A stretch of 63,153 bases of DNA, filler included, from Deltaproteobacteria bacterium (lineage in GTDB: Bacteria; JAEEML01): NCBI GenBank assembly GCA_016283195.1. It is 3 parts of 3 records of this genome, joined end to end, with 100 filler letters (N's around TTAATTAATTAA, not from the genome) between each part and the next. Parts side by side here need not be neighbours in the genome. Positions count along the whole stretch, not along the records: positions 31,751 to 58,131 come from JAEEML010000051.1; 2 more parts are not named here. The stretch is one strand, 5' to 3'. Under the pieces are notes generated by a model. That model saw nothing but the letters and a program-made list of their open reading frames with translations. It was not told where the DNA came from and did not search any database. Position numbers and translations under genes: made by a program. Of this stretch, positions 37,312 through 54,346 are shown one piece after another. The stretch's first letter is position 1; each line of letters starts with the position of its first letter.

Positions 37312-39480
37312 CTATTCCAGACTAATCCTAGCGATGGGCTGGATATTCATATCAGGCGAAAGTTCCTGATAAGAAAGCACTGAGAGATGCGGAAATTCCA
37401 GTTCCAGTAACTTGCGGAAATAACGCCGGATTTCCATAGTGGTAAGAATAACCGGATTCTGGGCGGTGGGCGGCAGGTTGCCAACTTCGTTGCGCACAGC
37501 AGCAAGTATTTCCTGCGTAATTTCCGGCTCAAGAGCCAGGTAACTACCACTCTGGGTGTGCTGGATGGAGCTACGCACTGTCTCCTCAATTTGCGGATCG
37601 AGGAGGTAAACAACGAGCGTATTGCCGCCGCGCGTATATTTGTGGCTGATATAGCGTTTTAAGGCATTACGCACATATTCAGTAAGCATAACGGTATCGT
37701 TTTCCACTTGCCCCCACTCGGCCAGAGCTTGCAAAATGGAGCGCAAATCGCGGATGGAAATCTCCTCTTCCACCAGGCGGCGCAAAATATCGGTGAGCTG
37801 GAAGGGGGAGACGGCCTTGGGGACAACCTCTTTAACCAGCGCCGGGAAAGCCTGTTCCAGCTGTTCGAGCATATTCTGCACTTCCTGAATACCCACAAAC
37901 TCGGCGGCATTTTTGCGGAGAACAGAGGAGAGATGGAGCACCATATAACCGGCGGCATCCCAAGTGGTGAGGCCGGCTTGCTCGGCAATATCGGCATATT
38001 CGGCCGGAATCCAGGCACACTCGGAGCCGTTAGCCGGGTTTATTGCCTCCTCGCCCTGAATATTGAGCAAGGTGAGGCGGTCCACTGTATCGTTGACCAG
38101 CACCTTATCCAAGCTGACATTGCCGGAGACCAAAGGCACTTCGTTAATCATGATGATATAGGTGCCGGGCGGCAAATCCGTTTCATTACCGCGCACGCGG
38201 ATACCGGGGAATTTCACACCCAGCTCATAAAAGAGACCATCGCGCATCATGGGGATCATCTCGCCCAGGAAGCGGTTGCCACCGCCCACATCTTCCACCA
38301 GAGGAATGAGATCGCCGGCCACTTCCAAAGCAATGGGCGTAACCACCGGCAGCATCTGGCTGGACTGGCCCTCTTGCTTTTTAGCTTTTTGCACCTGCTC
38401 TTCGCGCGTTTTTTGGGCCATTTCCTGAATTTCGTTGGCCGGCGCATCTTCCACTGTCTCACCGGCGGCAATGCGCCCGGCTTTGTGCTTCATAAGGCCG
38501 TAAGATAGAGTAGCAATAAGAGCAGCCATAGCAAAGAAGGGAATAGTGGGAAGACCGGGAATGAGGCCAATACCGGCGCACATACCGGCAGCAATAGCAA
38601 AAGCTTTGGGCTGGCCCAAAACCTGGGAACTGATATCTTTACCAAGGTTGGAATTTTCGTCTTCGGAGGCCACGCGGGTCACGATCATACCGGCGGTCAT
38701 AGCGGCAAGGAGCGAAGGAATTTGGGAAACAAGACCATCACCAATAGTTAAAATACTATATTGCTCAACAGCTTCGCCGGCGGTCATGCCCTTCATGGTC
38801 ACACCGATGATAATACCGGCCACAATATTGATAACAGTAATAATAAGGCTGGCTATGGAATCGCCTTTAACGAATTTCATAGCACCATCCATAGCACCAA
38901 AGAGCTGTGATTCGCGGTTCAAATCGTTACGGCGGCGGCGGGCTTCGTCGAGGTCAAAAGCGCCGGCCCGAAGATCGGCATCAATAGACATCTGTTTACC
39001 GGGCATAGCATCCAATGTAAAACGGGCTGCCACTTCGGAAACACGCTCGGCACCTTTAGCAATAACCAAAAACTGAATAATTGTAAGGATTAAGAAGATA
39101 ACGGCACCAACAACCAAATTGCCGCGCACCACGAATTGACCAAATGCGGTAACCACTTCACCGGCTTGGCCGTTGAGCAAAATAAGACGAGTGGAAGAGA
39201 CGTTAAGAGCTAAGCGGAAAAGGGTGGTAACCAAAATAATAGTAGGGTAAGAAGCAAGTTTCAAAGCCGATTGCAAATACATGGAAATCATTAAAAGTAT
39301 TGCTGAAATAGCAATATTGGTAACCATGAGCAAATCGAGCAAAAAGTTGGGCAAAGGAATAATGAGCATACCGATAATGCCCACAACGGCCAAAGCGAGG
39401 AGAATATCGGCATATTTAGTAATGCTCTGGCCGATGGTTCCGGCCTTATAACTCTCAATAATATTCATCTGTTGCTCCAA
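37312..39480 (-). CDS. sctV: Type III secretion export gate, SctV/FlhA (FHIPEP) family
   Basis: RVSEVAARFTLDAMPGKQMSIDADL, GAMDGAMKFVKGD, VLSYQEL; start TTG 39480 or ATG 39468. Confidence 0.9.
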   Translation of the reverse strand: MEQQMNIIESYKAGTIGQSITKYADILLALAVVGIIGMLIIPLPNFLLDLLMVTNIAISAILLMISMYLQSALKLASYPTIILVTTLFRLALNVSSTRLILLNGQAGEVVTAFGQFVVRGNLVVGAVIFLILTIIQFLVIAKGAERVSEVAARFTLDAMPGKQMSIDADLRAGAFDLDEARRRRNDLNRESQLFGAMDGAMKFVKGDSIASLIITVINIVAGIIIGVTMKGMTAGEAVEQYSILTIGDGLVSQIPSLLAAMTAGMIVTRVASEDENSNLGKDISSQVLGQPKAFAIAAGMCAGIGLIPGLPTIPFFAMAALIATLSYGLMKHKAGRIAAGETVEDAPANEIQEMAQKTREEQVQKAKKQEGQSSQMLPVVTPIALEVAGDLIPLVEDVGGGNRFLGEMIPMMRDGLFYELGVKFPGIRVRGNETDLPPGTYIIMINEVPLVSGNVSLDKVLVNDTVDRLTLLNIQGEEAINPANGSECAWIPAEYADIAEQAGLTTWDAAGYMVLHLSSVLRKNAAEFVGIQEVQNMLEQLEQAFPALVKEVVPKAVSPFQLTDILRRLVEEEISIRDLRSILQALAEWGQVENDTVMLTEYVRNALKRYISHKYTRGGNTLVVYLLDPQIEETVRSSIQHTQSGSYLALEPEITQEILAAVRNEVGNLPPTAQNPVILTTMEIRRYFRKLLELEFPHLSVLSYQELSPDMNIQPIARISLE

Positions 39481-39640
39481 GACGAGCAGCCCTGCCCGCC
39501 TTTTGTGTACACAAAGACAGTGGCACTATATAGGAGGGCAAGGGAATTGGCAACAGTTTCCAAAGATTTTATGGCTGCTTGCCCCCTTTGGCTCTGGTTC
39601 AGCGTTTTAAGGCGAACAAAAAAAGAAAAAAGTTTTCACA

Positions 39641-39673
39641 CCATCACAATCTGATAGTCACCCTGATTATTAT
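39641..39673 (+). promoter_or_regulatory. Putative WYL box 1 + -10 (CCATC-ACAATCT-GATAG, N10, TATTAT)
   Basis: Motif copy upstream of AAA ATPase. Confidence 0.75.
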
Positions 39674-39735
39674 GCTCTTTAAGGGAGTGCTTAGGCTCTT
39701 GGGATTTTCCTGTGGCAGCACCTGGGAGGCAAATT

Positions 39736-41466
39736 ATGGCCAGAGCAAAAAAAGTAGCATTTAATGTCATGAATACTCTCGATTTTGCAGGTGAAATACT
39801 GAAAAAATCAAAATTTAAACCGGAAGAAAAGGAAAACTTTCCTAAAGGCGAATTTGCTGAAGCTATTGATAAACTCGCGAAATATTTTGGCACCAGCGGC
39901 TATGCAACCTGGATTTTAACCGGCATAATCTTCGAATATTTTGGTGGCAGCCAGGGCTTTAGGCCCAGTGATAATACCAGCATGGGCGATATAGCTGATT
40001 TTTTTAATATATCACCAATAAAACTAATGGGTTACAGAGAAGATATATTAAGTCTTATGGCCAAAGGCTATATAAAGAACGAGCGCACTTTTGGTAAGAG
40101 TATCGGCCGCTTTAACTCCTTTAGCGTTAATCCGGATCTCATAAATTGCCTTTTGCAAAATCAGCCGCTTTGTTTCCCTAAAGAGCCGGAGACCATGACC
40201 CTGGCCGAGGGCCTGGAAAAACTGGCTGATATGCTTGAAGACCATAATGATTTCACCAAGCGGGAAGGAATCAGGGCTATGATGGAGATGGAAGAACTCT
40301 TCTTTAAAGGTAAGAAGCTTAAAGAGATTAGAAAACTTTTGCGGCCGCGCGGCTCCAGATTGCAGGAGAATCTCGATAGCCTGCTGTTTTATGCTATTTT
40401 TAATAACTCCCTGCAAGGCGATGAGACGCGTCTTTTGCACACTGTACAGCAAATTTACAATGGGGAATATCACCTTATTATGACCAAATTCTTAAAGGGT
40501 ACACACCCGCTTTTGCAAAAAGAACTGGTTGAATTATGCGAGCGGGAAACGGCGCAAAAGGCCACAGTGACGCTGACGCAAAAAGCTCTCGAAATTTTTC
40601 TGGGCGCAGAAGAAGCTAAAATGTACAGTCTTTTGAACAGCGAAGCCCAGGCCGAGCTCTTAAAGCCCGAAGAAATAAAAGTAAAAGAACTTTTTTATAA
40701 TAAAGAAAATACAAAAGATATTGAGCGCTTGTATTCTTTTCTTAACGAAGAAAATCTGCGCAAAATAGGAAAGCGCCTGGAAGAACAAGGCTTTGCCAAG
40801 GGTATCGCCGTTTTACTCTACGGCCCGCCGGGAACGGGCAAAACCGAAACTGTTTTACAACTGGCAAGAGCCACGGGGCGGGCGGTGCTTCATGTGGATA
40901 TAAGCGACACCAAGTCCTGCTGGTTTGGTGAGAGCGAAAAAATCATCCGCAAAATTTTTACCGATTACCGGCGCCTTTGCGAAGTGCAAAATCGCCATAG
41001 CGAAGGCAAAGCGCCAATTTTGCTCTTTAACGAGGCCGATGCTGTTTTGTCAAAGCGCAAAGATATATCCTCCAGTAATGTGGCGCAAACCGAAAATGCC
41101 ATCCAAAATGTCATCTTGGAGGAGATGGAAAAGCTAAAAGGCGTTATGATTGCCACCACCAACATGATTGATAATTTAGATGCTGCTTTTGAGCGCCGTT
41201 TCCTTTTTAAAATCATGCTGGATAAGCCAAGCGTGGAAGCCAAAAGAAAAATATGGGCCTCCCGCCTGCCGTGGCTAAATAGTGCAGAGGTGGATATTTT
41301 TGCTAAAAATTATAATTTCAGTGGCGGGCAGATAGATAATATTGTGCGCAAAATAACCATGGAAGAGATTTTGAGCGGCCAGCACCCCAGCCCGGAAGAA
41401 CTGGCGGAATATTGCCGCCATGAGAAACTTGATACCCAAAGCGCGGCTAAACCCATCGGTTTTTAA
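39736..41466 (+). CDS. AAA+ ATPase with long N-terminal domain
   Basis: GPPGTGKT Walker A, LLFNEAD variant Walker B, TTN...LDAAFERRF, C-terminal PIGF; GGAGG RBS before ATG 39736. Confidence 0.92.
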   Translation: MARAKKVAFNVMNTLDFAGEILKKSKFKPEEKENFPKGEFAEAIDKLAKYFGTSGYATWILTGIIFEYFGGSQGFRPSDNTSMGDIADFFNISPIKLMGYREDILSLMAKGYIKNERTFGKSIGRFNSFSVNPDLINCLLQNQPLCFPKEPETMTLAEGLEKLADMLEDHNDFTKREGIRAMMEMEELFFKGKKLKEIRKLLRPRGSRLQENLDSLLFYAIFNNSLQGDETRLLHTVQQIYNGEYHLIMTKFLKGTHPLLQKELVELCERETAQKATVTLTQKALEIFLGAEEAKMYSLLNSEAQAELLKPEEIKVKELFYNKENTKDIERLYSFLNEENLRKIGKRLEEQGFAKGIAVLLYGPPGTGKTETVLQLARATGRAVLHVDISDTKSCWFGESEKIIRKIFTDYRRLCEVQNRHSEGKAPILLFNEADAVLSKRKDISSSNVAQTENAIQNVILEEMEKLKGVMIATTNMIDNLDAAFERRFLFKIMLDKPSVEAKRKIWASRLPWLNSAEVDIFAKNYNFSGGQIDNIVRKITMEEILSGQHPSPEELAEYCRHEKLDTQSAAKPIGF

Positions 41467-41477
41467 GCGAAAAAAGA

Positions 41478-41510
41478 ATATCATTTTCTGATAGAGTGTG
41501 CCATTATCCT
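41478..41510 (+). promoter_or_regulatory. Putative WYL box 2 + -10 (ATATC-ATTTTCT-GATAG, N10, TATCCT), autoregulatory
   Basis: Motif copy directly upstream of the WYL gene. Confidence 0.7.
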
Positions 41511-41526
41511 CGTCGGGAGGTGTTTT

Positions 41527-42552
41527 ATGGATAATGAAAACGGGCGCAAGTCGCTGAACACCATGATGTTAAACCGCATTTTAATCATTCATCAACTAAT
41601 AAAATCAGGTAGTTACCCGAGCCGCGAGCGCATCCGCGACAAAATTGAGGATGTTTTAAGAGTAGAGCGCCCCAGCACAGCTACATTTTCGCGCGATATG
41701 AATACGCTGCGCGATATTTTTAAAGCCGATATTGCCTATAGCAAGGAATATGGGGGCTATTATTACACCGACAAAAATTTTAACCTGCCACTCAATAATT
41801 TAAAAGGTGATGAGCTTTTTTACCTCACCTGCGCCAAAACACTACTGGAAAATTTTGCGGGCACGCCGCTCTATAAAGAAATCAGCGCCGCCATCGCTTT
41901 TGTGGTGGATTCTTCCGGCCATGTGGGCGGTGATTTATTAAGCCGCATTGCTGTGCCGCCTACTCCGCAGGCCAGTATTGATAATGCCGTGTGGCAGCTT
42001 TTAAAGGGCGCTCTCCTTAGTTGCCAAATTGTGGAATTTGCTTATGTCGGCCGCTGGCACGAAGAAAAAAAGCGCCGCCGCGTGCGCCCGTACCAAATTC
42101 TTCTCGATGAAGGCATGTATTACCTTTGGGGCTATGATGAACTGGCTACTCCGGCCGGTACCAGGCTCTTTTGTTTTCCGCGCATCGAAAACCTCACCAT
42201 AACCGCTGATACTTTTGAGTTGCCTGATGATTTTGAATTTAAAAAGCATACCGGCGGCGGCAAAATGGGAGTGTGGAGCGATACGCACACTCTTAATTAC
42301 AGAGTGGAATTTTTCGGCGTTTCCAAGAATTTTGTCAAAGATTACGTTTGGGCCGAAGAGCAAGTAATAGAAGATGTCCCAGAGCATGATTCCGTGGTTA
42401 TTACTTTTCGCTCGGCGCAGTGGCAACGCGTTTTGGGGTGGATTTTGTCCCAAGGGGCGGGAGCCAGGCCGCTGGAGCCGCAGTGGCTGGTAAAAGCCTG
42501 GAAAGATGAGATTAAAAAGATGGAGAGCCGGGCGGCCGGTGTAGAAGGGTAA
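41527..42552 (+). CDS. HTH-WYL-WCX transcriptional regulator (PafB/DriD-like)
   Basis: wHTH (TFSRDMNTLRD...GGYYY), WYL core (RRVRPYQI...YYLWGYD...RLFCFPRI), WCX (WILSQGAGARPLEPQWL). Confidence 0.93.
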   Translation: MDNENGRKSLNTMMLNRILIIHQLIKSGSYPSRERIRDKIEDVLRVERPSTATFSRDMNTLRDIFKADIAYSKEYGGYYYTDKNFNLPLNNLKGDELFYLTCAKTLLENFAGTPLYKEISAAIAFVVDSSGHVGGDLLSRIAVPPTPQASIDNAVWQLLKGALLSCQIVEFAYVGRWHEEKKRRRVRPYQILLDEGMYYLWGYDELATPAGTRLFCFPRIENLTITADTFELPDDFEFKKHTGGGKMGVWSDTHTLNYRVEFFGVSKNFVKDYVWAEEQVIEDVPEHDSVVITFRSAQWQRVLGWILSQGAGARPLEPQWLVKAWKDEIKKMESRAAGVEG

Positions 42553-42714: not shown

Positions 42715-44424
42715 ATGAAATTAAAAAGAAATTTGGTGCTGCTTCCTTCTGTGCTTCTTCTGGCTCTTACCGCTTGTTCCGATAACAAGAAAGAGGCTTC
42801 GGCCGGTAATGCGGCCACCCAGCCCGAGGCCGCCGTAAAAAAACCGCTCCCCGATAAATTATCTATTTTTTACGGCAATACCCGCCCGACTCTATTTTCT
42901 GTACCGCAGGCTTACCAATGGTCTATCGGTGCTCTGCTCGATAATGGCGATAACTTTTGTACCGGTACTCTGATTGAAGATGATGTTGTGCTCACAGCCG
43001 CTCACTGCGCTTATGATGATAATAACAATATCAGCTCAATAAACGGTATTTCTTTTGGTATCGGGCCGGACATGAAAAATCCCGCTCACAAAATTGCGGT
43101 GAAAAAAATCATTCCCCACGAAGAGTATCTTAAAAACTGCGCTAAAGATCCGGATGGTATTTCCTCTAAAAATGATGTGGCTCTCTTTATTTTAAAAGAA
43201 AAAGCCAGCAAATATGTTCCCACTTTAAAGCCCATCCCCATGAATAAGGCCTCTTTGGCGAGTCTCAAAGGTGATAGTGTGCAAAATGTGGGCTATGGCA
43301 CCACCGAAGGCACCGGCAGTTTTGATTATTACAATTATTACAACACCAAACGCCTCTGGACAGTCGAAGAAGTTACCGCGGTCAGCTCTTTTGATTTCAC
43401 CGTCGATGGCAAAGGTATCTCTTCCGTTTGCATGGGCGACTCCGGCGGCCCGGCTCTTTATGCTATAGATAACCAGATTTACATTGTCGGTACCGTCTCC
43501 TGGGGCCAAAGCACCTGTTTGGGCGAAGCGCACTATGCCCGCGTTAATGATAATATTGCCTGGATTACCGAAAAGCTGGGCCACGAAGTGGAAGATTACC
43601 TCTTGCCGATTGACTCTCCCGAAGAGCCGGTGCCTGCCGATGAGTGCGAAGGTATTACGGCTGACGGTGTTTGTGATGGCACTATCCATAAATGGTGCTC
43701 TGAGGATGGCACTTTGCACGAACTTGATTGCAAAAGCCTCGATATGGTTTGCGGCAATATCGGCGAGTTCCGCACCTGCATTACCCCGGAGGTCAGCAGT
43801 TGCGGCAATATCGGCCGTAAAGCCATTTGCGATGGCAATATCCTTAAATGGTGCGGTGATGATGGCACCATTAAAGAAGTCGATTGCACTATTCTCGGGG
43901 AGATTTGTGCGAGCAATGAGTATGCCGCTTGTGTAAAAGAAGAAGATAGCTGTGGCAGCATTACTACTGCTGTTTGCGATGGTAATGTGGTTAAGTGGTG
44001 TGGCGCCATCGGCACCCTTATAGAGCATGATTGTGCGGAAGAAAATAAAACCTGCGGTTTAACGAGCTTTGGCGAATATTGGTGCATTGATGCACCTGCT
44101 GATAATTGCGGCGATGTTACTTTTGTCGGTGGTTGCGATGGCCAAGTCGCCCGCTGGTGTCAAAATGGTATCGTTTACGAGCATGATTGTGCCTTGGAAA
44201 ACAAAGCTTGCGGCTTTGTAAATGATGTCGATGGTTATTGGTGTGTGGAGACTGATAATCAGCCAGATCCCAATGACCCCTGCGGCGGCATCTCTTATCT
44301 TGGCCGGTGCAACGGCAATGTCGCCGAGTGGTGCGAAGAGGGCACCATTATTAAACGCGATTGCGCCCGTACTGGTTATGTTTGTGGCTATGTGAGCCCG
44401 GAACTGGGCTATTACTGCAAATGA
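42715..44424 (+). CDS. S1 trypsin-like serine protease lipoprotein with C-terminal Cys-rich repeats
   Basis: Lipobox LTAC; CTGTLI, LTAAHC, NDVAL, GDSGGP; repeated CDGNxxKWC units. Confidence 0.93.
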   Translation: MKLKRNLVLLPSVLLLALTACSDNKKEASAGNAATQPEAAVKKPLPDKLSIFYGNTRPTLFSVPQAYQWSIGALLDNGDNFCTGTLIEDDVVLTAAHCAYDDNNNISSINGISFGIGPDMKNPAHKIAVKKIIPHEEYLKNCAKDPDGISSKNDVALFILKEKASKYVPTLKPIPMNKASLASLKGDSVQNVGYGTTEGTGSFDYYNYYNTKRLWTVEEVTAVSSFDFTVDGKGISSVCMGDSGGPALYAIDNQIYIVGTVSWGQSTCLGEAHYARVNDNIAWITEKLGHEVEDYLLPIDSPEEPVPADECEGITADGVCDGTIHKWCSEDGTLHELDCKSLDMVCGNIGEFRTCITPEVSSCGNIGRKAICDGNILKWCGDDGTIKEVDCTILGEICASNEYAACVKEEDSCGSITTAVCDGNVVKWCGAIGTLIEHDCAEENKTCGLTSFGEYWCIDAPADNCGDVTFVGGCDGQVARWCQNGIVYEHDCALENKACGFVNDVDGYWCVETDNQPDPNDPCGGISYLGRCNGNVAEWCEEGTIIKRDCARTGYVCGYVSPELGYYCK

Positions 44425-44549
44425 GTATCCCGCTCTGCCAGACTTTGCTCGACTCTTCTTATAATTTTGGGCAATTCATGCCGCTTCTTGATTAAAACCT
44501 GCTATGTATAGCCGAAGGTTGTGTTATACTCCGCCGCCGGAGGCTTTTT

Positions 44550-44663
44550 ATGAGCATTTACCTGAATCCATGTAGGCAGTATTTTAAAAAAATCGCCGAC
44601 ATGGCTATCTATGTGTTATATTGGAAAATGCCCAGCTGGGGCTGGAACGGGCGAAATTTTTAG
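44550..44663 (+). pseudogene. 37-codon chimeric remnant: AAA-ATPase-like N-terminus (MSIYLNP...) joined to a MIF/tautomerase C-terminus
   Basis: Translates MSIYLNPCRQYFKKIADMAIYVLYWKMPSWGWNGRNF*; tail matches AVYVSYWETPNWGWNGHNF* of 53941-54282. Confidence 0.75.
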
Positions 44664-44689
44664 CGCAGGCTGACAATTTTTTCATCACA

Positions 44690-44722
44690 CTATCGTAATC
44701 TGATAGCCAAGGGTCGTATAGG
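44690..44722 (+). promoter_or_regulatory. Putative WYL box 3 + weak -10 (CTATC-GTAATCT-GATAG, N10, TATAGG)
   Basis: Motif copy upstream of mini-ORF and mcrB. Confidence 0.75.
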
Positions 44723-44765
44723 GAAGAAAAGCGGGGAGAATCCCTACTTGGAAAGGAAGAGAACT

Positions 44766-44816
44766 ATGGTTAGGGCAAAGAAGGTGCGATTTAGGTGGCG
44801 AGGCTTGCTAAGCTGA
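44766..44816 (+). pseudogene. Mini-ORF MVRAKKVRFRWRGLLS*, resembling the start of the AAA ATPase (MARAKKVAF)
   Basis: ATGGTTAGGGCAAAGAAGGTGCGATTT vs ATGGCCAGAGCAAAAAAAGTAGCATTT at 39736; AAGGAAG upstream. Confidence 0.6.
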
Positions 44817-44877
44817 GGTGGGTATGCTAGGGTGGAGCAGCTGATGTGAGCTGGGAAAGCAGTTGAGGAGGAAAATT

Positions 44878-46569
44878 ATGGGATATTGGCATATGCAATT
44901 ACATCCGAATGACCTTTCGAATTATACTCGGGAAGATATTCTAGGACTAGTTAAAAATGAAGGCGTAATAGGCATTGGTGAAAGTTGGATTGGAGATCAT
45001 GGTCAACCAAGTAATTTCAAAAATGTTTTAAAAGAGGGAGATATTGTTCTTATCAGACATAATGGTCCGCTGTGTTTAGTTCGAGTAATTGGTTCCTGTT
45101 TTGAAAATCCTAACCAAACTCAGGTAAAAGCATGGTTCTATTTTTGCAGAAGAGTAGTGATATTAGATGAAAATGGGAAAGAAATGGCGGATAAATTCCA
45201 AAAGGAAACGAAAAAATCGTGGAATAATAATATTTATTTACCAGATACTTTAGGACATGCAGACAAATGTGAGTTTATAAAATTTTGGTATCAGGAAATA
45301 TTGAAAAAGGAGCAGATAGAAAAAATGCAGAAAGTGGTTGAGCTATTAAAACTAAAAAAGAACATCATCCTCCAAGGTGCTCCCGGTACTGGTAAAACCT
45401 ATACCACAGCAGAATTGGCTTTATCCATTTGCGATGGTATAGATAAAGTTCCCAATAGTCATAAAAAAGTTATGGAGTGCTATGAAAAATTGCAACAGCA
45501 AGGGCAAATTGGCTTTATTACTTTTCATCAGTCCATGGATTACGAGGATTTTGTGGAAGGAATAAAGCCAGTTTTGGAAAAAAATGTGAGTACAGATAAG
45601 AATGAAGTATCTTATAAGATTTCGCCCGGAATTTTTAAAAGTATATGTGGTAAAGCTGAAAAAGAATTATTATCATCATTTGATAATGCTTGGAATAAAC
45701 TGCTAGGAGAGATTGAAAAATCAAGCGGTAATCCATATAAGTTAACAACTGTAAAACAAGAAACTGAGTTTGGCTTAGAAATAAATAAAAATGATGGATT
45801 AACTATATGTACTGGCAAAGATTTTACAGAAAAAAATGTTGGCAGTATAACAAAAGATAACTTACGTCAGTTTTGGCAAAACAAATATGATGGCGATGGA
45901 CGTTCCTCCTATTATGAAGGTGTTTTAGCAGAATTAACGAATAAGTATAATCTGAAGAACTATGAACTAAAAAACTACGTCCTCATCATCGACGAAATCA
46001 ACCGCGGCAATGTCTCCAAGATTTTTGGTGAGTTAATCACACTCTTGGAAGCAGATAAACGCAAGCTTGTCGGAGTTGACGATTCTCCAGAAAATCAGGA
46101 AAAACAACATACAATTGAATTAACACTCCCATATTCAAAAGAAAAATTCTCTGTTCCGTCTAATCTTTACATCATCGGCACCATGAACACCACCGACCGC
46201 AGTGTTGGCTCTATTGATTATGCTGTGCGCCGCAGATTTTCCTTTGTGACTCTGGAAGCAAATAGATCAAAGATAGAAGACGAAAACGCAAAGAAACTAT
46301 TTGATTCCGTTAAGCACTTCCTAAATAAATCCAAGTACGATATGGACATCGAAGATTTGATGGTTGGCCATAGCTACTTTATGGATGCTGCCAATTTGCA
46401 GATGAAATGGCAATATGAAATTCTGCCACTTCTGATGGAGTATCATAAAGATGGAATTATTAAGGAATCTCCATTGAAGGTTTTCTCTGAGGAAGAAGCC
46501 AAAAAAGTAAAGTTGGATTATAATTTATTCATCGAAAAATGGTCTGAGAAGAAATCTGAAGAAGCTTAA
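44878..46569 (+). CDS. mcrB: McrB-family GTPase (type IV restriction)
   Basis: GAPGTGKT, TFHQSMDYEDFVEG, IIDEINRGN, GTMNTTDRS (NxxD), RRRF, GHSYF. Confidence 0.93.
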   Translation: MGYWHMQLHPNDLSNYTREDILGLVKNEGVIGIGESWIGDHGQPSNFKNVLKEGDIVLIRHNGPLCLVRVIGSCFENPNQTQVKAWFYFCRRVVILDENGKEMADKFQKETKKSWNNNIYLPDTLGHADKCEFIKFWYQEILKKEQIEKMQKVVELLKLKKNIILQGAPGTGKTYTTAELALSICDGIDKVPNSHKKVMECYEKLQQQGQIGFITFHQSMDYEDFVEGIKPVLEKNVSTDKNEVSYKISPGIFKSICGKAEKELLSSFDNAWNKLLGEIEKSSGNPYKLTTVKQETEFGLEINKNDGLTICTGKDFTEKNVGSITKDNLRQFWQNKYDGDGRSSYYEGVLAELTNKYNLKNYELKNYVLIIDEINRGNVSKIFGELITLLEADKRKLVGVDDSPENQEKQHTIELTLPYSKEKFSVPSNLYIIGTMNTTDRSVGSIDYAVRRRFSFVTLEANRSKIEDENAKKLFDSVKHFLNKSKYDMDIEDLMVGHSYFMDAANLQMKWQYEILPLLMEYHKDGIIKESPLKVFSEEEAKKVKLDYNLFIEKWSEKKSEEA

Positions 46570-46574
46570 AAGTA

Positions 46575-47945
46575 ATGGAACTACAGCTATTTAACTTCGA
46601 GGAACATCAGCGCCTTGAAGGTGCCGTTCAAATCGAGGCGTTCAAAAGTCTTTTGGATGCCGGTCATGTTTTGTGTCCTGCCGTTTCGAATTATAAATCT
46701 ATTAAGGACGTAGAACATCTCGGTGTTTTCAATGATGGAGGTATTCCCAAAGCCCATTACTATATTGGAGCCTCTTGGTTCATAAAAGACAAGTGTGCCT
46801 TTGTCGTAAAGCCCAAAGTGGATGTTGATTACATCAAGCTGTTCATGACGGCATTGGAGTTGAATTCCGAAAATGAGGCTGCATATTTCTCCAATTACTA
46901 CTACATTGATTTTGAAAAGCCCGCGATAAAGACGAACGCCTTGAATAATGTAATCACGCCGCTGCTTATTTTGCATTACTTATCTCTGCTTAAGCATCTT
47001 GTTTCAAGGGGACTCAAGAAGGGCTATGTTGTTCGGGAAGAAAACTTGCAGTCCAAAATCCGTGGGCGAATCCTGTTGCAAAGGCATTTGACGAAAAATG
47101 TTTTCGCCAAAAGGGAGGATCGTGTTTTTTGCCGATTCCAGGAATTCACGGAGGATATTCCGGAGAACAGGATCCTCAAAAAGGCATTGTCTTTCTCTGT
47201 TCGTTTCATAAATCAGTATGAAAGCTTCAAAAGTCATCTGCAAGAATTGACTCCGCAGTTGGCGATGATTGGTTCCGCTTTCGAGAATGTTTCCGAAGAT
47301 GTGACGATTGCCCAAGTCGCTAAGGTCAACGCCGGCAAGATATTCCGCCATTACGAAGCCGCCATCAAGGTTGCCAAACTGATTCTGCGCCATTTTGATT
47401 ATTCCATTGACAATGCTTCGGAAACTGCACAGGGTGTGCGACCCTTCTGCATCGACATGCCCCGCCTCTATGAGATGTATGTGCTGAGTTTGCTACGCAA
47501 GGCATACCCCGGGCAGATTAGTTTTCAAGTAAAGGGAACGCACAAAACGCAGGTCGATTACATCAATGTTAATGAACAGATTATTCTTGATGCGAAGTAT
47601 AAACCGCGCTATCAAAAAGGTGATATAGGCATAACTGAAGATGTAAGAGAAATTAGCGGTTATGCAAGGGATAAAAAAATCCATAAGGCTTTAAAATGGA
47701 ATGCGAACATCACTGACAAGAATGGCAAATTATTGCCAGATTGCGTGATTGTTTACCCTGTTGTACAAGTAGAAGAAAACGACAATGGGGAATTGCCGGA
47801 TGTTGTTCCAGAAAATAACTGTTCCTGCAAATATGAATTTGACGAAAATAAGTCTATTGTTAGCCAGTGCGATGAAATAAAGGCTTTCGAAGGCTTTTAC
47901 AAAATCGCTGTTCCGCTACCCACAACGGATTCGGCGGCAAATTAA
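46575..47945 (+). CDS. mcrC: McrC-family nuclease subunit
   Basis: Directly after mcrB; DIPENRILK, IDMPRLYEMYV, VD...ILDAKYK. Confidence 0.9.
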   Translation: MELQLFNFEEHQRLEGAVQIEAFKSLLDAGHVLCPAVSNYKSIKDVEHLGVFNDGGIPKAHYYIGASWFIKDKCAFVVKPKVDVDYIKLFMTALELNSENEAAYFSNYYYIDFEKPAIKTNALNNVITPLLILHYLSLLKHLVSRGLKKGYVVREENLQSKIRGRILLQRHLTKNVFAKREDRVFCRFQEFTEDIPENRILKKALSFSVRFINQYESFKSHLQELTPQLAMIGSAFENVSEDVTIAQVAKVNAGKIFRHYEAAIKVAKLILRHFDYSIDNASETAQGVRPFCIDMPRLYEMYVLSLLRKAYPGQISFQVKGTHKTQVDYINVNEQIILDAKYKPRYQKGDIGITEDVREISGYARDKKIHKALKWNANITDKNGKLLPDCVIVYPVVQVEENDNGELPDVVPENNCSCKYEFDENKSIVSQCDEIKAFEGFYKIAVPLPTTDSAAN

Positions 47946-48132
47946 TAATTACTTTATGAGCCGTACCCGCTAAAGCGCCGCATTTGCCCAAACTTTTCCC
48001 TCGCCAGACTTTCGTCCATCGGTTATAATGTGCAACCGGCTTTATCGGAAAAGCGCTGTTGTTACCGAAAGCCACAAACCGGGAAATGAGATTTAGAGGC
48101 AATTAGTCGATTTTAGCTTGGGAAAATGGGTT

Positions 48133-49152
48133 ATGAAGAATAATTCGCTATATGTTAAAGATTTGGATTCCCTCGAACAACAGATAATAAGTCTGCTGGA
48201 GAATTCTCGTCAGCAGATTGTCTCCAATATAAATACTACGATGGTGCAAACTTATTTCACAATAGGAAAGTACATTGTGGAATATGAGCAAAATGGAAAC
48301 GATCGTGCTCAATATGGAAAAGCGGTGTTAAAAAATCTGTCGGTGCGGCTTACCAAGAAAATGGGTAAAGGATATTCGGAAGATAATTTGGCAAATATGC
48401 GCAAATTTTATTTGTGCTATAAGATTTCCGAAACAGTGTCTCGGAAATTTACACTAAGCTGGTCGCATTATCTGAAGCTCATACGCATAGATAACCTGGA
48501 AGAACGCAATTTCTATGAAATTGAAGCAGCCCAGAATAATTGGAGTGTTCGCGAACTTGAGCGGCAATTTGATACTTCACTTTATGAGAGACTGGCACTA
48601 AGCAAAAACAAGCAGAATATAAAGGAACTGGCGTTACAAGGTCAGATTATCGAGAAACCGGAGGATATGATAAAAGACCCATATATTTTGGAATTTACTG
48701 GTCTTCCAGAGTTGCCGGAATATTCGGAATCAGAATTGGAACAAAGGCTCATTGATAACTTGCAAAAATTTCTTCTCGAACTTGGCAAAGGCTTTACTTT
48801 TGTTGGGCGACAGGTTCGACTTACATTTGAGGAAGAACACTATTATGTTGATTTAGTTTTTTACAACCGTTTGCTTCGAGCCTTTGTGCTGATAGATCTT
48901 AAAAGAGGGAAATTAAAGCATCAGGACTTGGGTCAAATGCAAATGTATGTAAATTATTATGATCGTTTTGTAAAACTTGATGACGAAAATCCGACAGTTG
49001 GTATTCTGTTGTGCGCCGATAAAAACGATTCTGTGGTAGAAATCACGCTTCCAAGGGAGAATAACCAAATTTTTGCTAGCAAATACCAAACGATTCTTCC
49101 AAGTAAGGAGTTGCTAAAGGAATTGCTACAACAAAAAATAGATATAAGGTAA
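48133..49152 (+). CDS. DUF1016 / YhcG-like PD-(D/E)XK nuclease
   Basis: LSWSHY, WSVRELERQ, KDPYILEF, FLLELGKGF, DLGQMQMYVNYY. Confidence 0.92.
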   Translation: MKNNSLYVKDLDSLEQQIISLLENSRQQIVSNINTTMVQTYFTIGKYIVEYEQNGNDRAQYGKAVLKNLSVRLTKKMGKGYSEDNLANMRKFYLCYKISETVSRKFTLSWSHYLKLIRIDNLEERNFYEIEAAQNNWSVRELERQFDTSLYERLALSKNKQNIKELALQGQIIEKPEDMIKDPYILEFTGLPELPEYSESELEQRLIDNLQKFLLELGKGFTFVGRQVRLTFEEEHYYVDLVFYNRLLRAFVLIDLKRGKLKHQDLGQMQMYVNYYDRFVKLDDENPTVGILLCADKNDSVVEITLPRENNQIFASKYQTILPSKELLKELLQQKIDIR

Positions 49153-50618: not shown

Positions 50619-50651
50619 ATTATAAAGCGGTGCACTATCAGATTGCGATAG
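50619..50651 (-). promoter_or_regulatory. Putative WYL box 4 + -10 (minus strand CTATC-GCAATCT-GATAG, N10, TATAAT)
   Basis: Perfect TATAAT 10 nt from the motif, upstream of the LRR gene. Confidence 0.8.
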
Positions 50652-50691
50652 TGTGAGAAAATTTTTACTTTTTGCACTTTTTTGTATGACA

Positions 50692-50724
50692 CTATCGTAT
50701 TTTGATAGTCCGGCCTTGTATCAT
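50692..50724 (+). promoter_or_regulatory. Putative WYL box 5 + -10 (CTATC-GTATTTT-GATAG, N10, TATCAT)
   Basis: Back-to-back with box 4; no sizeable ORF downstream. Confidence 0.75.
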
Positions 50725-50965: not shown

Positions 50966-51063
50966 CTTTTTGTCCAGTGTTGGCGAACAGAATTGCTGCT
51001 TTTTGTCCAGCACTAATGGACAGATTCGAAAGGTGAACACCTTTTTTACTTTTTTGTATGACA

Positions 51064-52773: not shown

Positions 52774-52907
52774 TGGGGAGCGAAAAAACACTTTGGGCGG
52801 GGCTCTTTACCTTAAAGGCTTTGGCAGAGCGCGGGCAGCTGTGCTATACTGCGCTACCGCGTAGCGCGGGAATGGGGTAAAAAGAATAGTGAGAACGGAA
52901 AAGAAAC

Positions 52908-53786
52908 ATGAGCTCTGGTAAAATGTCGATTCGTTTCTATAAAGACCGCGAGGTGCGTGCCGTATGGGACGAACAAAACGACAAATGGTGGTTTTCGGCT
53001 ATTGATATAATCAAAGCCATAACAGGCGAAAATGATTATATAAAAGCCGGCAATTACTGGCGTTGGCTCAAGAAAAAGCTGATTGCTAGCAACATTCAAC
53101 TCGTGAGTGTCACTCACGACTTCAAATTCCAGGCTCCTGATGGCAAAAAACGGGCCGCCGATGCCCTTGATAATAACTGTGTGCAACTTTTAACTAGGAA
53201 TTTTCCTAATAACAAGGCGATAGAATTTCTTGAGTGGTTTAATTACAGCGAAAATTCTCTCGATGGCCAAAGCAAGAAAAAGGCCTATACCTTTTGGCAG
53301 AGCAATATAGTAACCCTCGAAGATATTAGGACAACAAAAGCACTAAAGCAGATTCATGCTTATATTTTCGGCGGGCTATATGACTTCGCAGGAAAGATAC
53401 GTACCAAGACCATTAGTAAAGGTGGGTTTACGTTTTGTGTGGCGGAGTATTTAGATAGTGCTTTAAAATCAATAGAAAAAATGCCTGAAAATACTTTTGA
53501 GGAAATAATTGATAAATATGTGGAAATGAATGTAGCCCATCCATTTATGGAAGGCAATGGCCGTAGCACGCGAATTTGGCTTGATTTAATATTAAAAAAG
53601 CGGCTTGGCAAATGTGTGGATTGGAGCCAAATAGGCAAAAAAGAGTATCTAAGCGCCATGGTGGAAAGTCATATTAATTTTGCGCAAATAAAAGAAATAT
53701 TAAAAAGAGCTCTTACCGATAAAATAGATGATCGCGAATTATTTATGAAAGGCATTGATTATTCTTATTATTATGAGGAAGATTGA
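52908..53786 (+). CDS. BRO-N-like + Fic domain protein (AMPylase)
   Basis: EVRAVWD...WWFSAIDII N-terminus; HPFMEGNGRSTR Fic motif. Confidence 0.92.
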   Translation: MSSGKMSIRFYKDREVRAVWDEQNDKWWFSAIDIIKAITGENDYIKAGNYWRWLKKKLIASNIQLVSVTHDFKFQAPDGKKRAADALDNNCVQLLTRNFPNNKAIEFLEWFNYSENSLDGQSKKKAYTFWQSNIVTLEDIRTTKALKQIHAYIFGGLYDFAGKIRTKTISKGGFTFCVAEYLDSALKSIEKMPENTFEEIIDKYVEMNVAHPFMEGNGRSTRIWLDLILKKRLGKCVDWSQIGKKEYLSAMVESHINFAQIKEILKRALTDKIDDRELFMKGIDYSYYYEED

Positions 53787-53940
53787 GAATCTCGCCGCTG
53801 CGTGAGGCAGAGAAGGTGGAGAATAGAGGATGGGGTGAAAGTTAAAGCCTGAATAGCGCCGGAGGTGGCATAGCTACGCAGGCTGGAGATATATAACAAC
53901 GAGTCGCTAGTGCGCTCAATAAAGAACAGGAGAGAAAACC

Positions 53941-54282
53941 ATGCCCATGATTGAAGCCAAAGTAACTATGAAACTGGCGGAAGAAAAAAGAGATTTGCTG
54001 AAAAGCGAGTTTGGTGAGGCCATCGGCCTCATGGGTAAGCCGGAGTCTTATCTCATGATAAACCTGGCTGATGAGCAGGATTTATACTTTGCCGGCAAGA
54101 AGCTTGATAAAGGGGCCTATGTGGAAGTGAAAGTCCTGGGCCATGTGGAGGCGAGCGCCAGCAGCAAAATGACGAGCAAAGTATGCGAAATCATGCAGAA
54201 AGAGCTCGGTATCCCCGGTAATGCCGTTTATGTGTCTTATTGGGAGACGCCCAATTGGGGTTGGAACGGGCACAATTTTTAA
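53941..54282 (+). CDS. MIF / phenylpyruvate tautomerase-like protein
   Basis: N-terminal Pro (MPMI), GKPESYLM, C-terminal WGWNGHNF. Confidence 0.88.
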   Translation: MPMIEAKVTMKLAEEKRDLLKSEFGEAIGLMGKPESYLMINLADEQDLYFAGKKLDKGAYVEVKVLGHVEASASSKMTSKVCEIMQKELGIPGNAVYVSYWETPNWGWNGHNF

Positions 54283-54313
54283 AATAAGTAGCCGCTAAAA
54301 TTTTTTCAGCACA

Positions 54314-54346
54314 CTATCGTAATTTGATAGTGCCAGGTTTTATATT
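54314..54346 (+). promoter_or_regulatory. Putative WYL box 8 + -10 (CTATC-GTAATTT-GATAG, N10, TATATT)
   Basis: Motif copy upstream of metallophosphoesterase. Confidence 0.8.

What the first reader, a model, noticed from the sequence alone, without database searches (positions are those of the whole stretch)
44521..44877. Stacked gene remnants around box 3 suggest cargo swapping behind WYL promoters
Seen within about 350 bp: RBS + MSIYLNP... start; an in-frame MIF C-terminus (AIYVLYWKMPSWGWNGRNF*); box 3; then a mini-ORF MVRAKKVRF matching the AAA ATPase start MARAKKVAF; then AT-rich mcrB. The block 44604-44706 aligns by eye with 54223-54330 (MIF 3' end + TTTTTTCA.CACACTATCGTAAT.TGATAG), but the downstream gene differs (mcrBC vs metallophosphoesterase). 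Inference: the 'MIF end + box' unit was duplicated or imported, and genes are exchanged downstream of the promoter by recombination, with no recombinase in the window.
Basis: partly seen in the sequence, partly recalled or inferred. Interest (0 to 1): 0.7.

Follow-up and report, generated by a model that had tools for sequence, protein, structure and literature searches.

The report
Stacked gene scars behind reused promoter
A 350-base gap between two bacterial immunity operons holds leftovers of three older genes piled around a reusable promoter, which shows that the genes placed behind that promoter have been exchanged over time.

Summary
Window 44520-44877 is a composite scar on one contig.

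Its parts, in order:
1. The promoter, RBS and first ~14 codons of a multi-copy PF09820 (AAA-ATPase_like/PDDEXK_9) gene.
2. Fused in frame, the last ~24 codons of a MIF/tautomerase gene.
3. A T-rich tract and the palindromic box ACTATCGTAATCTGATAG, with a -10-like hexamer 10 nt downstream.
4. The RBS and first 9 codons of an IetA-like AAA ATPase gene.
5. An 85-nt unique spacer, then an AT-rich mcrBC-yhcG block.

A related metagenome contig (L274) carries an intact MIF with a 69/70-identical tail and box. Identity stops at the last box base, and other genes follow there: an unnamed 122-aa ORF, then Fic.

Both intact MIF copies are preceded by the same PF09820 promoter and an internal PF09820 piece. 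The ancestral unit was therefore most likely PF09820-MIF-box-cargo, now seen three times with three different cargos.

The box also heads the island's AAA and WYL genes. Box-like sites (TATC-N7-GATAG) stand before several AAA and WYL homologues in rumen Treponema MAG contigs, most often 10 nt upstream of a -10-like hexamer.

My reading is ordinary recombination at reused promoter modules in a WYL-controlled defence island. It is not a dedicated cassette system. Contiguity across the scar could not be confirmed from other runs.

The parts
44520..44543 (+). P2 promoter/leader remnant: extended -10 TGTGTTATACT, then a GC-rich leader with the GGAGG RBS. One of 14 genome copies that head PF09820 paralogues and a few other genes.
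   Evidence: 78-81% identity to the 5' ends of three paralogues (E 3.8e-6 to 8.6e-5); 14 copies with at most 1 mismatch; the segment 44529-44542 plus its T-run also scores as a weak terminator-like hairpin.
44550..44663 (+). Chimeric 37-codon ORF. Codons 1 to ~14 come from a PF09820 (AAA-ATPase_like + PDDEXK_9) gene. Codons ~15-37 are the C-terminus of a MIF/tautomerase paralogue. Probably not functional.
   Evidence: mean identity to the three PF09820 paralogues is 82% over the first 24 nt (44550-44573), and identity to MIF is 77% over 44616-44663. The best breakpoint lies at 44587-44596; the paralogues hit PF09820 (E 2.9e-28) and PF08011, while the 37-aa ORF itself has no Pfam hit.
44637..44706 (+). 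MIF tail end, T-rich tract and box 3 (core ACTATCGTAATCTGATAG at 44689-44706). This stretch is nearly identical to the relative L274.
   Evidence: 27/27 and 42/43 bases identical to L274, against 30/45 in the 45 nt just upstream; ungapped extension from the box is 97 nt to the left and 0 to the right.
44717..44722 (+). -10-like hexamer TATAGG, exactly 10 nt after the box. It is degenerate because the final T is missing.
   Evidence: TAnnnT begins exactly 10 nt after the box end in 9 of 16 genome boxes. Box 3 is one of the 7 that fail this pattern; no sigma-70 -35/-10 pair in 44300-45000.
44755..44793 (+). RBS and first 9 codons of an IetA-like AAA ATPase gene (mini-ORF 44766-44816, MVRAKKVRF...). 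This is the remnant of a former cargo of box 3.
   Evidence: statistics given in the observation check. Treponema homologues of the AAA protein start MVNKDSVRFNV and MANKDSINFNV; no AAA 3' remnant elsewhere on the contig.
44794..44877 (+). G-rich spacer of unknown origin that ends in the mcrB RBS (GAGGAGG).
   Evidence: no paralogue in the genome or in the fetched loci; no Rfam match; fold z of -2.35 for 44707-44890, which is mild.
44878..49152 (+). Present cargo: mcrB (44878-46569), mcrC (46575-47945) and a YhcG/DUF1016 nuclease (48118-49152). The block is AT-rich.
   Evidence: AAA_5, PF10117 McrBC, and YhcG_C + DUF1016_N. PDC-S02 for YhcG. GC of 34.9, 42.6 and 37.2% against 47.8% for the genome.
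39640..42552 (+). Reference copy of the box-AAA module: box at 39640-39657, AAA (IetA-like) at 39736-41466, a degenerate box at 41477-41494, and the WYL+WCX regulator at 41527-42552.
   Evidence: IetA E 5.6e-24; WYL E 4.8e-23.
52842..54346 (+). Paralogous intact unit. In order: P2 (52842-52859), Fic (52908-53786), P2 leader piece (53857-53869), PF09820 internal piece (53877-53925), MIF (53941-54282), box (54313-54330), -10 TATATT, then the metallophosphoesterase (start codon near 54406-54415).
   Evidence: E 4.9e-4; z 5.4 and 13.0.

Best explanation
The stretch is a recombination scar. It is not a working gene or a dedicated element.

Setting. It lies in an 18-kb accessory, mostly defence-type island: IetA-like AAA, WYL regulator, trypsin-like protease, McrBC, YhcG, Fic and others. 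In this island individual genes are headed by one of two short reused promoter modules.
- Module 1 (the 'box') is a T-rich tract, the palindrome ACTATC-N6-GATAGT, 10 nt, and a -10 hexamer, with no -35 element. It is most likely the docking site of the island's wHTH-WYL-WCX regulator. I put this at about 65% for an activator standing in for the -35 contact and about 35% for a repressor.
- Module 2 (P2) is an extended -10 (TGCTATACT) followed by a GC-rich leader with the RBS. It heads the expanded PF09820 gene family.

Inferred history.
1. An ancestral block read P2-PF09820-MIF-box-cargo.
2. In the copy at 44.5 kb, a deletion joined PF09820 codon ~14 to MIF codon ~90. The join is in frame; an ATYTATGT word shared by both genes lies 15 nt downstream of the best breakpoint.
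3. The cargo behind this box was at one time an IetA-like AAA gene, of which only the RBS and 9 codons remain.
4. That gene was truncated and replaced by a foreign, AT-rich mcrBC-yhcG block.

The exchanges are best explained by the host's own homologous or microhomology-mediated recombination, using the 40-100-nt promoter modules as portable homology. The result is that new genes land under existing control.

What is shown: the homologies, the mosaic structure, and the abrupt junction at the box.
What is inferred: the order of events, the recombination route, WYL binding, and whether mcrBC is now read from box 3, from P2, or from both.
For: Remnants.
- PF09820 5' end.
- MIF tail and box.
- AAA start.

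Same promoter, other cargo.
- L274 has an intact MIF ending WGWNGRNF, as the scar does. It is followed by a box identical in 18/18 bases, then a 122-aa ORF and the start of Fic (92% over 63 nt to window 52881-52943).
- The scar is 69/70 identical to L274 over 44637-44706 and unrelated beyond that point.
- L274's other segments are only 87-90% identical to this genome.

The unit extends to the left.
- L274 and the 54-kb copy both carry a P2 leader and a PF09820 internal piece directly upstream of MIF. z values are 10.4 and 12.3 for L274, and 5.4 and 13.0 for the window. The two upstream regions against each other give z 20.5. blastn gives E 4.9e-4.

Box as a promoter module.
- Of the 16 copies kept in the genome, 10 lie in window 39.6-57.5 kb.
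- TAnnnT begins exactly 10 nt after the box in 9 of 16.
- Boxes stand before the AAA and WYL genes themselves.
- Box-like sites occur in 10 of 16 scanned loci that encode an AAA homologue (labelled Treponema, Spirochaetaceae, Spirochaetales or Spirochaetia). They sit before AAA, WYL and metallophosphoesterase homologues. An offset of 10 nt to TAnnnT is the most common (11 of 32 orientation-counted sites).
- No pair of boxes shares more than 23 nt to the right, while left extensions reach 97 nt.

Foreign cargo.
- GC values.
- mcrBC copies about 85-90% identical sit on deeper contigs of other organisms in the same kinds of samples (X1 record 6).

No recombinase domain was found in 42 window ORFs.
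Against: - No contig listed from other runs bridges 44521-44877, so contiguity rests on a single metagenome assembly.
- L274 is one short contig. Judging by its record name it may come from the same assembly as the window, so it is a co-occurring relative and not an independent sample.
- The AAA-start match is only 9 codons and was picked post hoc.
- The leader between box 3 and that start (44707-44754) does not resemble the AAA leader.
- The PF09820/MIF breakpoint is ambiguous over 44587-44615.
- The 45 nt of MIF tail just upstream of the near-identical patch are only 67% identical to either intact MIF. This needs either long neutral decay or a further exchange.
- Box 3 has a poor -10 hexamer (TATAGG), so it may no longer fire.
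- Abrupt loss of similarity after a promoter is also what simple promoter capture would give. The box is therefore not shown to cause the exchange.
- No close relative genomes were available. The nearest SctV/FlhA match is 75% aa identical and has no synteny.
Confidence: 0.72

Rival explanations
1. Assembly chimera. The metagenome assembler joined unrelated pieces at the repeated box or at P2, so the stack of remnants does not exist in any cell.
For: The genome is a 190-contig MAG with 4.18% estimated contamination. The scar contains two repeat families, the box and P2. No listed contig from runs X1-X4 spans it.
Against: The longest exact word shared by the two MIF-box copies is 14 nt, and P2 copies share about 22 nt. 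Both are too short to mislead usual k-mer assembly. The PF09820 and MIF pieces are diverged pseudogene-like sequence (67-82% identity), not copies of the intact paralogues, so they cannot be mis-joined reads from those genes. Short contigs 100% identical to AAA, WYL, trypsin and mcrB co-occur in run X1, and mcrB also occurs in X2 from another study.
Confidence: 0.06
2. Dedicated cassette system. The box is a recombination site, like an integron attC or a shufflon site, cut by a site-specific recombinase encoded elsewhere in the genome. Cargo is exchanged actively at that site.
For: Several junctions fall exactly at the right edge of the box: box 3 against L274, C7 against C46, and 50691 against 51063. 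The box is an inverted repeat. The box-3 patch is more conserved than the genome average (69/70 against 87-90%).
Against: Box orientation follows gene orientation. Two copies are on the minus strand and one pair is back to back. The 10-nt distance to a -10 hexamer is fixed and recurs in Treponema MAG contigs, which is promoter geometry. Boxes also precede the regulator and AAA genes themselves. No recombinase domain was found in 42 window ORFs. The remnants on both sides are ragged gene pieces, not precise cassette ends.
Confidence: 0.07
3. The small ORFs are functional. The 37-aa chimeric peptide or the 16-aa mini-ORF would be kept by selection, for example as a leader peptide that tunes mcrBC translation.
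For: Both ORFs have an RBS and an ATG. The chimeric ORF is in frame and open. The last 27 coding bases are 27/27 identical to L274.
Against: The ORF has no Pfam hit. It lacks about 90 N-terminal residues of a 113-aa MIF fold. By recall, not by any search here, the missing part includes the N-terminal catalytic proline of tautomerase-family proteins. The coding part upstream of the conserved patch has decayed, with E>K, T>M and N>S changes against both intact MIFs. The mini-ORF diverges from AAA after codon 9 and stops at codon 17. No paralogue or homologue of either peptide turned up.
Confidence: 0.05

Closest known systems
BrxR/CapW-type WYL regulators with R-BOX operators in phage-defence islands (Picton et al. 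2022, PMC9122601; passages read)
   Same: A wHTH-WYL-type regulator is encoded inside a mosaic defence island that includes type IV restriction. Palindromic operators lie upstream of its own gene and of other island promoters. The paper stresses that such islands are mosaic.
   Different: BrxR has two R-BOXes of 11-bp repeats with a 5-bp spacer, placed downstream of the -10, and acts as a repressor. Here 10 boxes lie in 18 kb. Each sits upstream of a -10 at a fixed 10 nt, where a -35 element would be. Binding was not tested. The protein has only weak sequence matches to solved WYL proteins (E about 1e-3).
DriD (Caulobacter) and PafBC (mycobacteria), WYL activators of damage regulons (PMC9186387; passages read)
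   Same: A homodimeric WYL regulator recognises a ~20-bp palindrome at several promoters, its own included. The promoters appear to depend on the regulator.
   Different: The position of the site relative to the core promoter differs. In recA the DriD site ends 17 nt upstream of the -35. The targets here are accessory and defence genes, not DNA-repair genes. Activation is inferred only from the missing -35 and the fixed spacing. That PafBC replaces the -35 contact is my recollection and was not checked here.
Putative mobile promoters / promoter reuse (Nijveen, Matus-Garcia & van Passel 2012, PMC3575422; whole text read)
   Same: Highly similar upstream sequences stand in front of unrelated genes within one genome, and related ones occur in distant taxa. 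The mechanism of movement is unknown.
   Different: Here flanking gene fragments (MIF tail, AAA start, PF09820 start) are preserved. They show that the promoter moved by segmental recombination together with pieces of its neighbours, and that it is tied to a specific regulator.
Integron cassette arrays
   Same: A repeated inverted-repeat element lies between unrelated, mostly co-oriented accessory genes, and the cargo varies between relatives.
   Different: There is no integrase. The element is 5' of each gene and follows gene orientation. It has promoter geometry. The junctions are ragged.

Membership tests
WYL-regulator operator/promoter (BrxR, DriD, PafBC kind) | A wHTH-WYL-WCX regulator is encoded next to the sites | tested here: met
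   Window 41527-42552 hits Pfam WYL (E 4.9e-9) and WCX (E 8.3e-7) and PADLOC WYL (E 4.8e-23). An N-terminal HTH was not detected by Pfam. Alignment to solved WYL proteins (E about 1e-3) covers residues 20-220.
WYL-regulator operator/promoter (BrxR, DriD, PafBC kind) | A palindromic site lies upstream of the regulator's own gene and of its target genes | tested here: met
   Boxes lie at 39640 (before AAA), at 41477 (degenerate, before WYL), and at 8 further copies within window 44.7-57.5 kb. Analogous sites precede WYL genes in Treponema MAG loci L096-L099 and L128.
WYL-regulator operator/promoter (BrxR, DriD, PafBC kind) | The regulator binds the site and changes transcription | not testable with these tools
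   This needs EMSA or footprinting and reporter assays. A second WYL gene exists on contig C182, so the assignment of the box to this regulator is not exclusive.
Integron / attC cassette array | A tyrosine-recombinase integrase lies adjacent to the array | tested here: not met
   No recombinase, integrase or transposase Pfam domain was found in 42 window ORFs. The rest of the genome was not scanned for one.
Integron / attC cassette array | The repeat sits at the 3' end of each cassette, all in one orientation | tested here: not met
   Boxes follow gene orientation, with copies at 50635 and 52757 on the minus strand. They sit at a fixed 10 nt from a -10 hexamer.
Putative mobile promoters (PMP criteria: at least 80% identity over at least 50 nt upstream of non-homologous genes) | A similar upstream sequence stands before unrelated downstream genes | tested here: met
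   44610-44706 against 54229-54330 is 78% over 97 nt, just under the 80% cut. Box 3 against L274 is 81/97 plus 18/18. C7 against C46 is 33/34 plus 17/18, or 52 nt at 96%. The positional window of the original criteria (-150 to -50) was not applied.
MIF/tautomerase (PF01187) for the 37-aa ORF | A complete ~113-aa fold with its N-terminus | tested here: not met
   Only about the last 24 codons are MIF-derived. The ORF has no Pfam hit. It is a remnant, not a member.
McrBC type IV restriction (present cargo) | A McrB AAA+ GTPase-type subunit followed by a McrC nuclease subunit | tested here: met
   AAA_5 (E 2.6e-15) and PF10117 McrBC (E 1.5e-30) fall on adjacent genes. Activity was not tested.

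The most novel reading that the evidence does not exclude
The box and P2 promoter modules would be more than conserved regulatory DNA. They would be the actual crossover points of a recombinase-free cassette exchange system. Short, regulator-bound promoter modules shared across an island, and across phyla in the rumen community, would serve as portable homology, so that incoming defence genes are captured directly under WYL control. This would work like an integron, but without an integrase and with the promoter as the att site.
Probability: 0.18. Interest if true: 0.7.

Novelty: new variant of a known kind. Interest (0 to 1): 0.45.

Why it matters
Defence islands are known to be mosaic, and WYL regulators are known to sit in them. 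How new genes come under the island's control is mostly unaddressed.

This locus keeps the physical traces of such events:
- the previous cargo's first 9 codons;
- the tail of the upstream neighbour;
- a relative with the same promoter, identical to its last base, and different genes after it.

That gives concrete, testable breakpoints for gene turnover anchored on a promoter. It also defines a promoter design, TATC-N7-GATAG then 10 nt then the -10 hexamer, that recurs beside AAA-WYL modules in rumen Treponema MAG contigs.

If the box turns out to be only a conserved operator, the finding is still a well-documented but ordinary example of pseudogene debris and promoter reuse in an accessory island.

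Tried and rejected
Comparison with relatives
- The 'relatives' offered for this genome were only 'same domain'. 0 of 40 had any match to 44300-45000.
- The nearest SctV/FlhA loci (45-75% aa identity; 6 of the 80 fetched were checked) share no neighbouring gene.
- McrB relatives (4 loci, 49-69% aa identity over residues ~132-561) are too distant to map the left edge of the imported block.

Read evidence
- Four runs hold only short contigs. Pieces 100% identical to the window cover parts of AAA, WYL, trypsin, mcrB, yhcG and LRR, but no listed piece spans the scar.
- This gives no verdict on contiguity. 174 further pieces were not shown.
- A joint in X4 between 40712 and 45223, with 7 letters in between, was set aside. 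It was found at 85% likeness, and both sides encode P-loop ATPases.

Alternative origins for 44707-44877
- There is no significant similarity to the L274 leader, the L274 Fic leader, the metallophosphoesterase leader or the window's Fic leader (z -0.2 to 0.5).
- There is no protein-level hit in the genome or in the fetched loci.
- There is no Rfam family.

Other checks
- No AAA 3' remnant lies beyond the mcrBC-yhcG block. The only hit is P-loop similarity inside mcrB.
- No remnants were found downstream of the two cargo-less boxes at 50691(+) and 51063(+).
- The exact box (up to 2 mismatches) is absent from the roughly 160 loci fetched up to that point (L015-L174). Only a looser pattern finds the Treponema versions.
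- Three of the 14 metagenome box hits (L267, L271, L273) have no similarity to this genome and no T-rich or -10 context. I treated them as chance matches.
- Of 18 genome box hits with up to 3 substitutions, I dropped 3 (C65, C94, C163; no promoter context). I added one weaker copy at window 57464.

Literature
- Searches for promoter-anchored exchange in defence islands or for IetA+WYL (listings only beyond the three papers cited) found no description of this arrangement.

Earlier notes of this scan
- Look-ups by place and by sequence returned nothing.
Full report
**Setting.** The window is three contigs of one metagenome-assembled genome joined by N spacers. C81 covers window 1-31650, C83 covers 31751 to about 58131, and C92 follows. 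The finding and its 54-kb counterpart both lie on C83.

Pfam and PADLOC give this gene order on C83:
- a FHIPEP export-gate gene (minus strand);
- an AAA ATPase, 39736-41466, IetA-like (E 5.6e-24);
- a WYL+WCX regulator, 41527-42552;
- a trypsin-like protease, 42715-44424;
- the stretch in question;
- mcrB (ATG at 44878), mcrC, and a YhcG/DUF1016 nuclease (PDC-S02);
- two BspA-type LRR genes (minus strand);
- Fic (PDC-S04), MIF (53941-54282), a metallophosphoesterase, an unknown gene, and an amidohydrolase.

- The block 44610-44706 matches 54229-54330 at 78% identity, blastn E 1.5e-14. The local-alignment z is 36.7, and 0 of 500 shuffles did as well.
- The block covers the last MIF codons, the stop, a T-rich tract and the box.
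- The 37-codon ORF 44550-44663 is open and ends WGWNGRNF*.
- The box pattern occurs 7 times in the window with up to 3 mismatches, against 0.40 expected.
- mcrB has 34.9% GC, mcrC 42.6% and yhcG 37.2%, against 47.8% for the genome.

**What the 'MSIYLNP' start is.** Window 44522-44574 is 78-81% identical to the 5' ends of three other genes of this genome (E 3.8e-6 to 8.6e-5). Those genes begin MGIYLNPSN..F..TLRAPIYVDKT. Two full copies hit PF09820 AAA-ATPase_like (E 2.9e-28) and PF08011 PDDEXK_9.

The shared part starts at an extended -10 (TGYTATACT), runs through a GC-rich leader with GGAGG, and continues into the coding sequence. I call this promoter-leader P2. It occurs 14 times in the genome with at most 1 mismatch. 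It heads PF09820 paralogues and a few other genes, Fic at window 52842 among them. The PF09820 family is large: tblastn finds more than a dozen loci.

**The chimeric ORF.** I compared the ORF without gaps, from its ATG against the PF09820 paralogues and from its stop against MIF.
- 44550-44573 resembles PF09820 (82%) and not MIF (33%).
- 44616-44663 resembles MIF (77%) and not PF09820 (26%).
- The breakpoint with the most matches lies at 44587-44596.
- An 8-nt word, ATYTATGT (44607-44614, coding IYV/VYV), is shared by both parents in the same register. It may have served as microhomology, so the junction is uncertain over 44587-44615.
- The ORF has no Pfam hit. It lacks most of the MIF fold, and I take it to be debris.

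**The mini-ORF.** MVRAKKVRF (ATG at 44766) resembles the AAA start MARAKKVAF (ATG at 39736).
- In all 6,434,828 six-frame 9-mers of the genome, 8 others match at least 6 of the 8 non-Met positions. The AAA start is the only one that begins with ATG.
- At DNA level, 28 of 39 bases match, RBS included (44755-44793 against the AAA RBS and start). z is 4.7, with 1 of 1000 shuffles as good.
- The same stretch compared with four other leaders gave z of -0.2 to 0.5.
- Treponema homologues of the AAA protein begin MVNKDSVRFNV and MANKDSINFNV, so V2 and R8 of the mini-ORF fit the family.
- After codon 9 the similarity ends. No AAA 3' part lies further along the contig.
- I accept this as the stump of a second AAA gene, with about 75-80% confidence.

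**The box is a promoter module.**
- Genome-wide there are 18 hits with up to 3 substitutions. I dropped 3 that lacked any context and added one weaker copy at window 57464. That gives 16 copies, of which 10 lie in window 39.6-57.5 kb.
- Each copy has a T-rich tract upstream.
- In 9 of 16, a TAnnnT hexamer starts exactly 10 nt after the box. Most of the rest have near-misses at the same place; box 3 has TATAGG.
- No -35 element fits. The position 17 nt upstream of the -10 falls in the middle of the palindrome. A sigma-70 scan of 44300-45000 finds nothing.
- Boxes precede the AAA gene (39640) and, in degenerate form, the WYL gene (41477).

**The design recurs in distant bacteria.**
- The AAA protein's nearest relatives found (38-51% aa identity) are in MAG contigs labelled Treponema or other Spirochaetia and Bacteroidales; full-length matches are mostly from the former.
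- Among 80 such loci, tblastn with this island's proteins finds WYL in 11, BspA-LRR in 10, YhcG in 3, the metallophosphoesterase in 1 (63% identity, directly upstream of AAA), the unknown 55-kb gene in 1 (57%), and MIF in 0.
- In 10 of the 16 loci I scanned, sites of the form TATC-N7-GATAG (or CCATC-N7-GATGG) occur. Several stand before AAA, WYL and metallophosphoesterase homologues. An offset of 10 nt to TAnnnT is the most common, at 11 of 32 orientation-counted sites.
- Conserved geometry next to a conserved regulator argues that the box is the WYL protein's site. Fixed spacing with no -35 argues for an activator mode more than a repressor mode. Both points are inferences.
- A second WYL gene exists on contig C182.
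- The regulator's matches to solved WYL proteins are weak (E about 1e-3).

**A relative with the same promoter and other cargo.** A scan of metagenome contigs for the box gave 14 stretches.
- Eight are the window's own contigs by length.
- Two are near-identical versions of C46 and C7.
- Three are unrelated chance hits.
- One, L274 (2699 nt), is 87-90% identical to this genome in its other parts.

L274 reads as follows:
- a Fib_succ_major gene;
- P2;
- a PF09820 internal piece;
- an intact 113-aa MIF ending WGWNGRNF;
- a box identical to box 3;
- a 122-aa ORF with no Pfam hit;
- the start of a Fic gene (92% over 63 nt to window 52881-52943).

The scar is 27/27 and 42/43 identical to L274 from 44637 to the last base of the box. 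It is unrelated to L274 immediately after the box. With about 11% background divergence, at most 1 mismatch in 70 has a probability of about 0.003 (my calculation). The patch is therefore either strongly constrained or recently exchanged. The 45 nt upstream of it are only 30/45 identical to either intact MIF, while the two intact MIFs agree at 40/45. That fits neutral decay of a dead gene piece or a further exchange.

**The unit extends to the left.** Directly upstream of MIF, both L274 and the window's 54-kb copy carry the P2 leader joined to an internal PF09820 segment (gene nt ~764-830).
- Against a PF09820 paralogue, z is 10.4 and 12.3 for L274, and 5.4 and 13.0 for the window.
- The two upstream regions against each other give z 20.5.
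- blastn of the internal piece on the contig gives E 4.9e-4.
- At protein level the piece reads RRLEIYNNESLVRSIKN against RGLEIYNPESVVRSMED.

The ancestral block was therefore most likely P2-PF09820-MIF-box-cargo. It now exists in three differently deleted forms with three cargos: mcrBC-yhcG with an AAA stump, the metallophosphoesterase and following genes, and in L274 the 122-aa ORF followed by Fic. The scar keeps PF09820 codons 1-14, which the other two copies have lost. It is therefore not derived from them by simple deletion.

**Where exchanges happen.** I extended all 136 pairs of the 17 boxes (16 from this genome plus L274) without gaps from the box edges. Left extensions reach 97 nt (box 3 against L274) and 34 nt (C7 against C46, 33 identical). 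No pair extends more than 23 nt to the right, which is to just past the -10. Similarity ends abruptly at or just after the promoter. This shows that the DNA on the two sides of the box has different histories. It does not show that the box causes the exchange, because promoter capture followed by selection would look the same.

**Limits.**
- MIF+box is not a general anchor. Of the 80 MIF loci fetched, I examined 55 with full-length matches. I dropped 25 that were truncated or belonged to Clostridia-type relatives at 50-56% identity. None of the 55 has a box-like site within 170 nt downstream, and their downstream sequences all differ.
- No close relative genome was available.
- Public runs hold only short pieces of this organism, and none of the listed pieces spans the scar. 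Contiguity therefore rests on one assembly. Against a chimera: the repeats are too short and too diverged to mislead an assembler (the longest shared word is 14 nt), and the remnants are not copies of the intact genes.
- No recombinase domain was found in 42 window ORFs. The rest of the genome was not scanned for one.

**Comparison with what is known.**
- WYL regulators inside mosaic defence islands, with palindromic operators, are described for BrxR (PMC9122601; passages read).
- WYL activators with a ~20-bp palindrome at several promoters are described for DriD (PMC9186387; passages read).
- Reuse of near-identical promoters before unrelated genes is described as 'putative mobile promoters', with the mechanism unknown (PMC3575422; whole text read).
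- Earlier notes of this scan on other genomes report WYL-linked palindromes at fixed distance from the -10 in front of swappable genes. These are unchecked AI notes and I use them only as leads.
- New here are the preserved debris on both sides of one such promoter and a relative that fixes the breakpoint to the base.
- My four literature searches found no description of this arrangement (listings only beyond the three papers read).

**Verdict.** This is a real, multi-layered recombination scar in a WYL-linked accessory island. The mechanism is most likely ordinary recombination at reused promoter modules. Interest is moderate.

Noticed in passing
window 31651-31750 and about 58132-58231: The window is not one molecule. 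It is three contigs (C81, C83, C92) joined by N spacers that contain TTAATTAATTAA. Repeats that span these joins, such as the repeat finder family D2, are artefacts of the spacer.
   Followed up: yes
genome-wide; in the window at 44520 and 52842, with a leader piece at 53857: A second reused promoter-leader (P2: TGCTATACTGCGCCGCCGGAGG..ATG) occurs 14 times. It heads an expanded PF09820/PDDEXK_9 family with more than a dozen loci, plus a few unrelated genes including Fic.
   Followed up: partly
window 50691-50708 (+) and 51063-51080 (+): Two boxes on the plus strand have no substantial ORF behind them. They face the 3' end of the minus-strand LRR gene. They may be promoters that lost their cargo, but no remnant could be detected.
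   Followed up: partly
window 50635-50708 and 52757-52773: The two BspA-type LRR genes are paralogues (about 34% aa identity). Their box promoters share 20 of 22 bases after the box. One of them stands back to back with a plus-strand box, 40 nt apart.
   Followed up: no
window 37312-39480 (-); contig C75 16708-20049: The FHIPEP protein's best matches found are in MAGs labelled Deltaproteobacteria or Archangium (61-75%) and Chlamydiales (50%), so it may be a type III secretion gate and not a flagellar one. The genome also encodes a 1113-aa ankyrin-repeat protein behind a box, EGF-like and Cys-rich repeat proteins, and LRR and Fic proteins. The island genes are closest to rumen Treponema MAGs (MIF up to 80% aa identity). 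Together this hints at a host-associated organism that exchanges genes within the gut community.
   Followed up: no
window 1-1200, 15170-15730, 29360-30620: Long arrays of Cys-rich coding repeats with periods of about 81, 99-105 and 57 nt lie inside very large ORFs.
   Followed up: no
window 24510-24966 vs 59735-60188; 25620, 59697, 60843, 62137: Segments 83-89% identical are shared between contigs C81 and C92, upstream of paralogous 287-aa ORFs with no Pfam hit. There is also a family of about 31-nt hairpin-like repeats (CCCTCTCC..TTTTTACAAA..GGAGAGGG), possibly REP-like terminators.
   Followed up: no
window 46121-47503 (runs X1, X3): Deeper contigs of other organisms in animal-gut runs carry mcrB/mcrC sequence about 85-90% identical to this one. 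An example is a 5858-nt contig at depth 16.7, against 2.5-5.8 for this organism's own pieces. This is consistent with mcrBC moving between community members.
   Followed up: no
contigs C46 2002-2511, C125 3359-5554, C172 376-1284: Boxes elsewhere in the genome head a DUF6847 protein, a Schlafen-group-3 helicase-domain protein and an unknown 302-aa protein. These are further members of the putative WYL-box regulon outside the island.
   Followed up: partly
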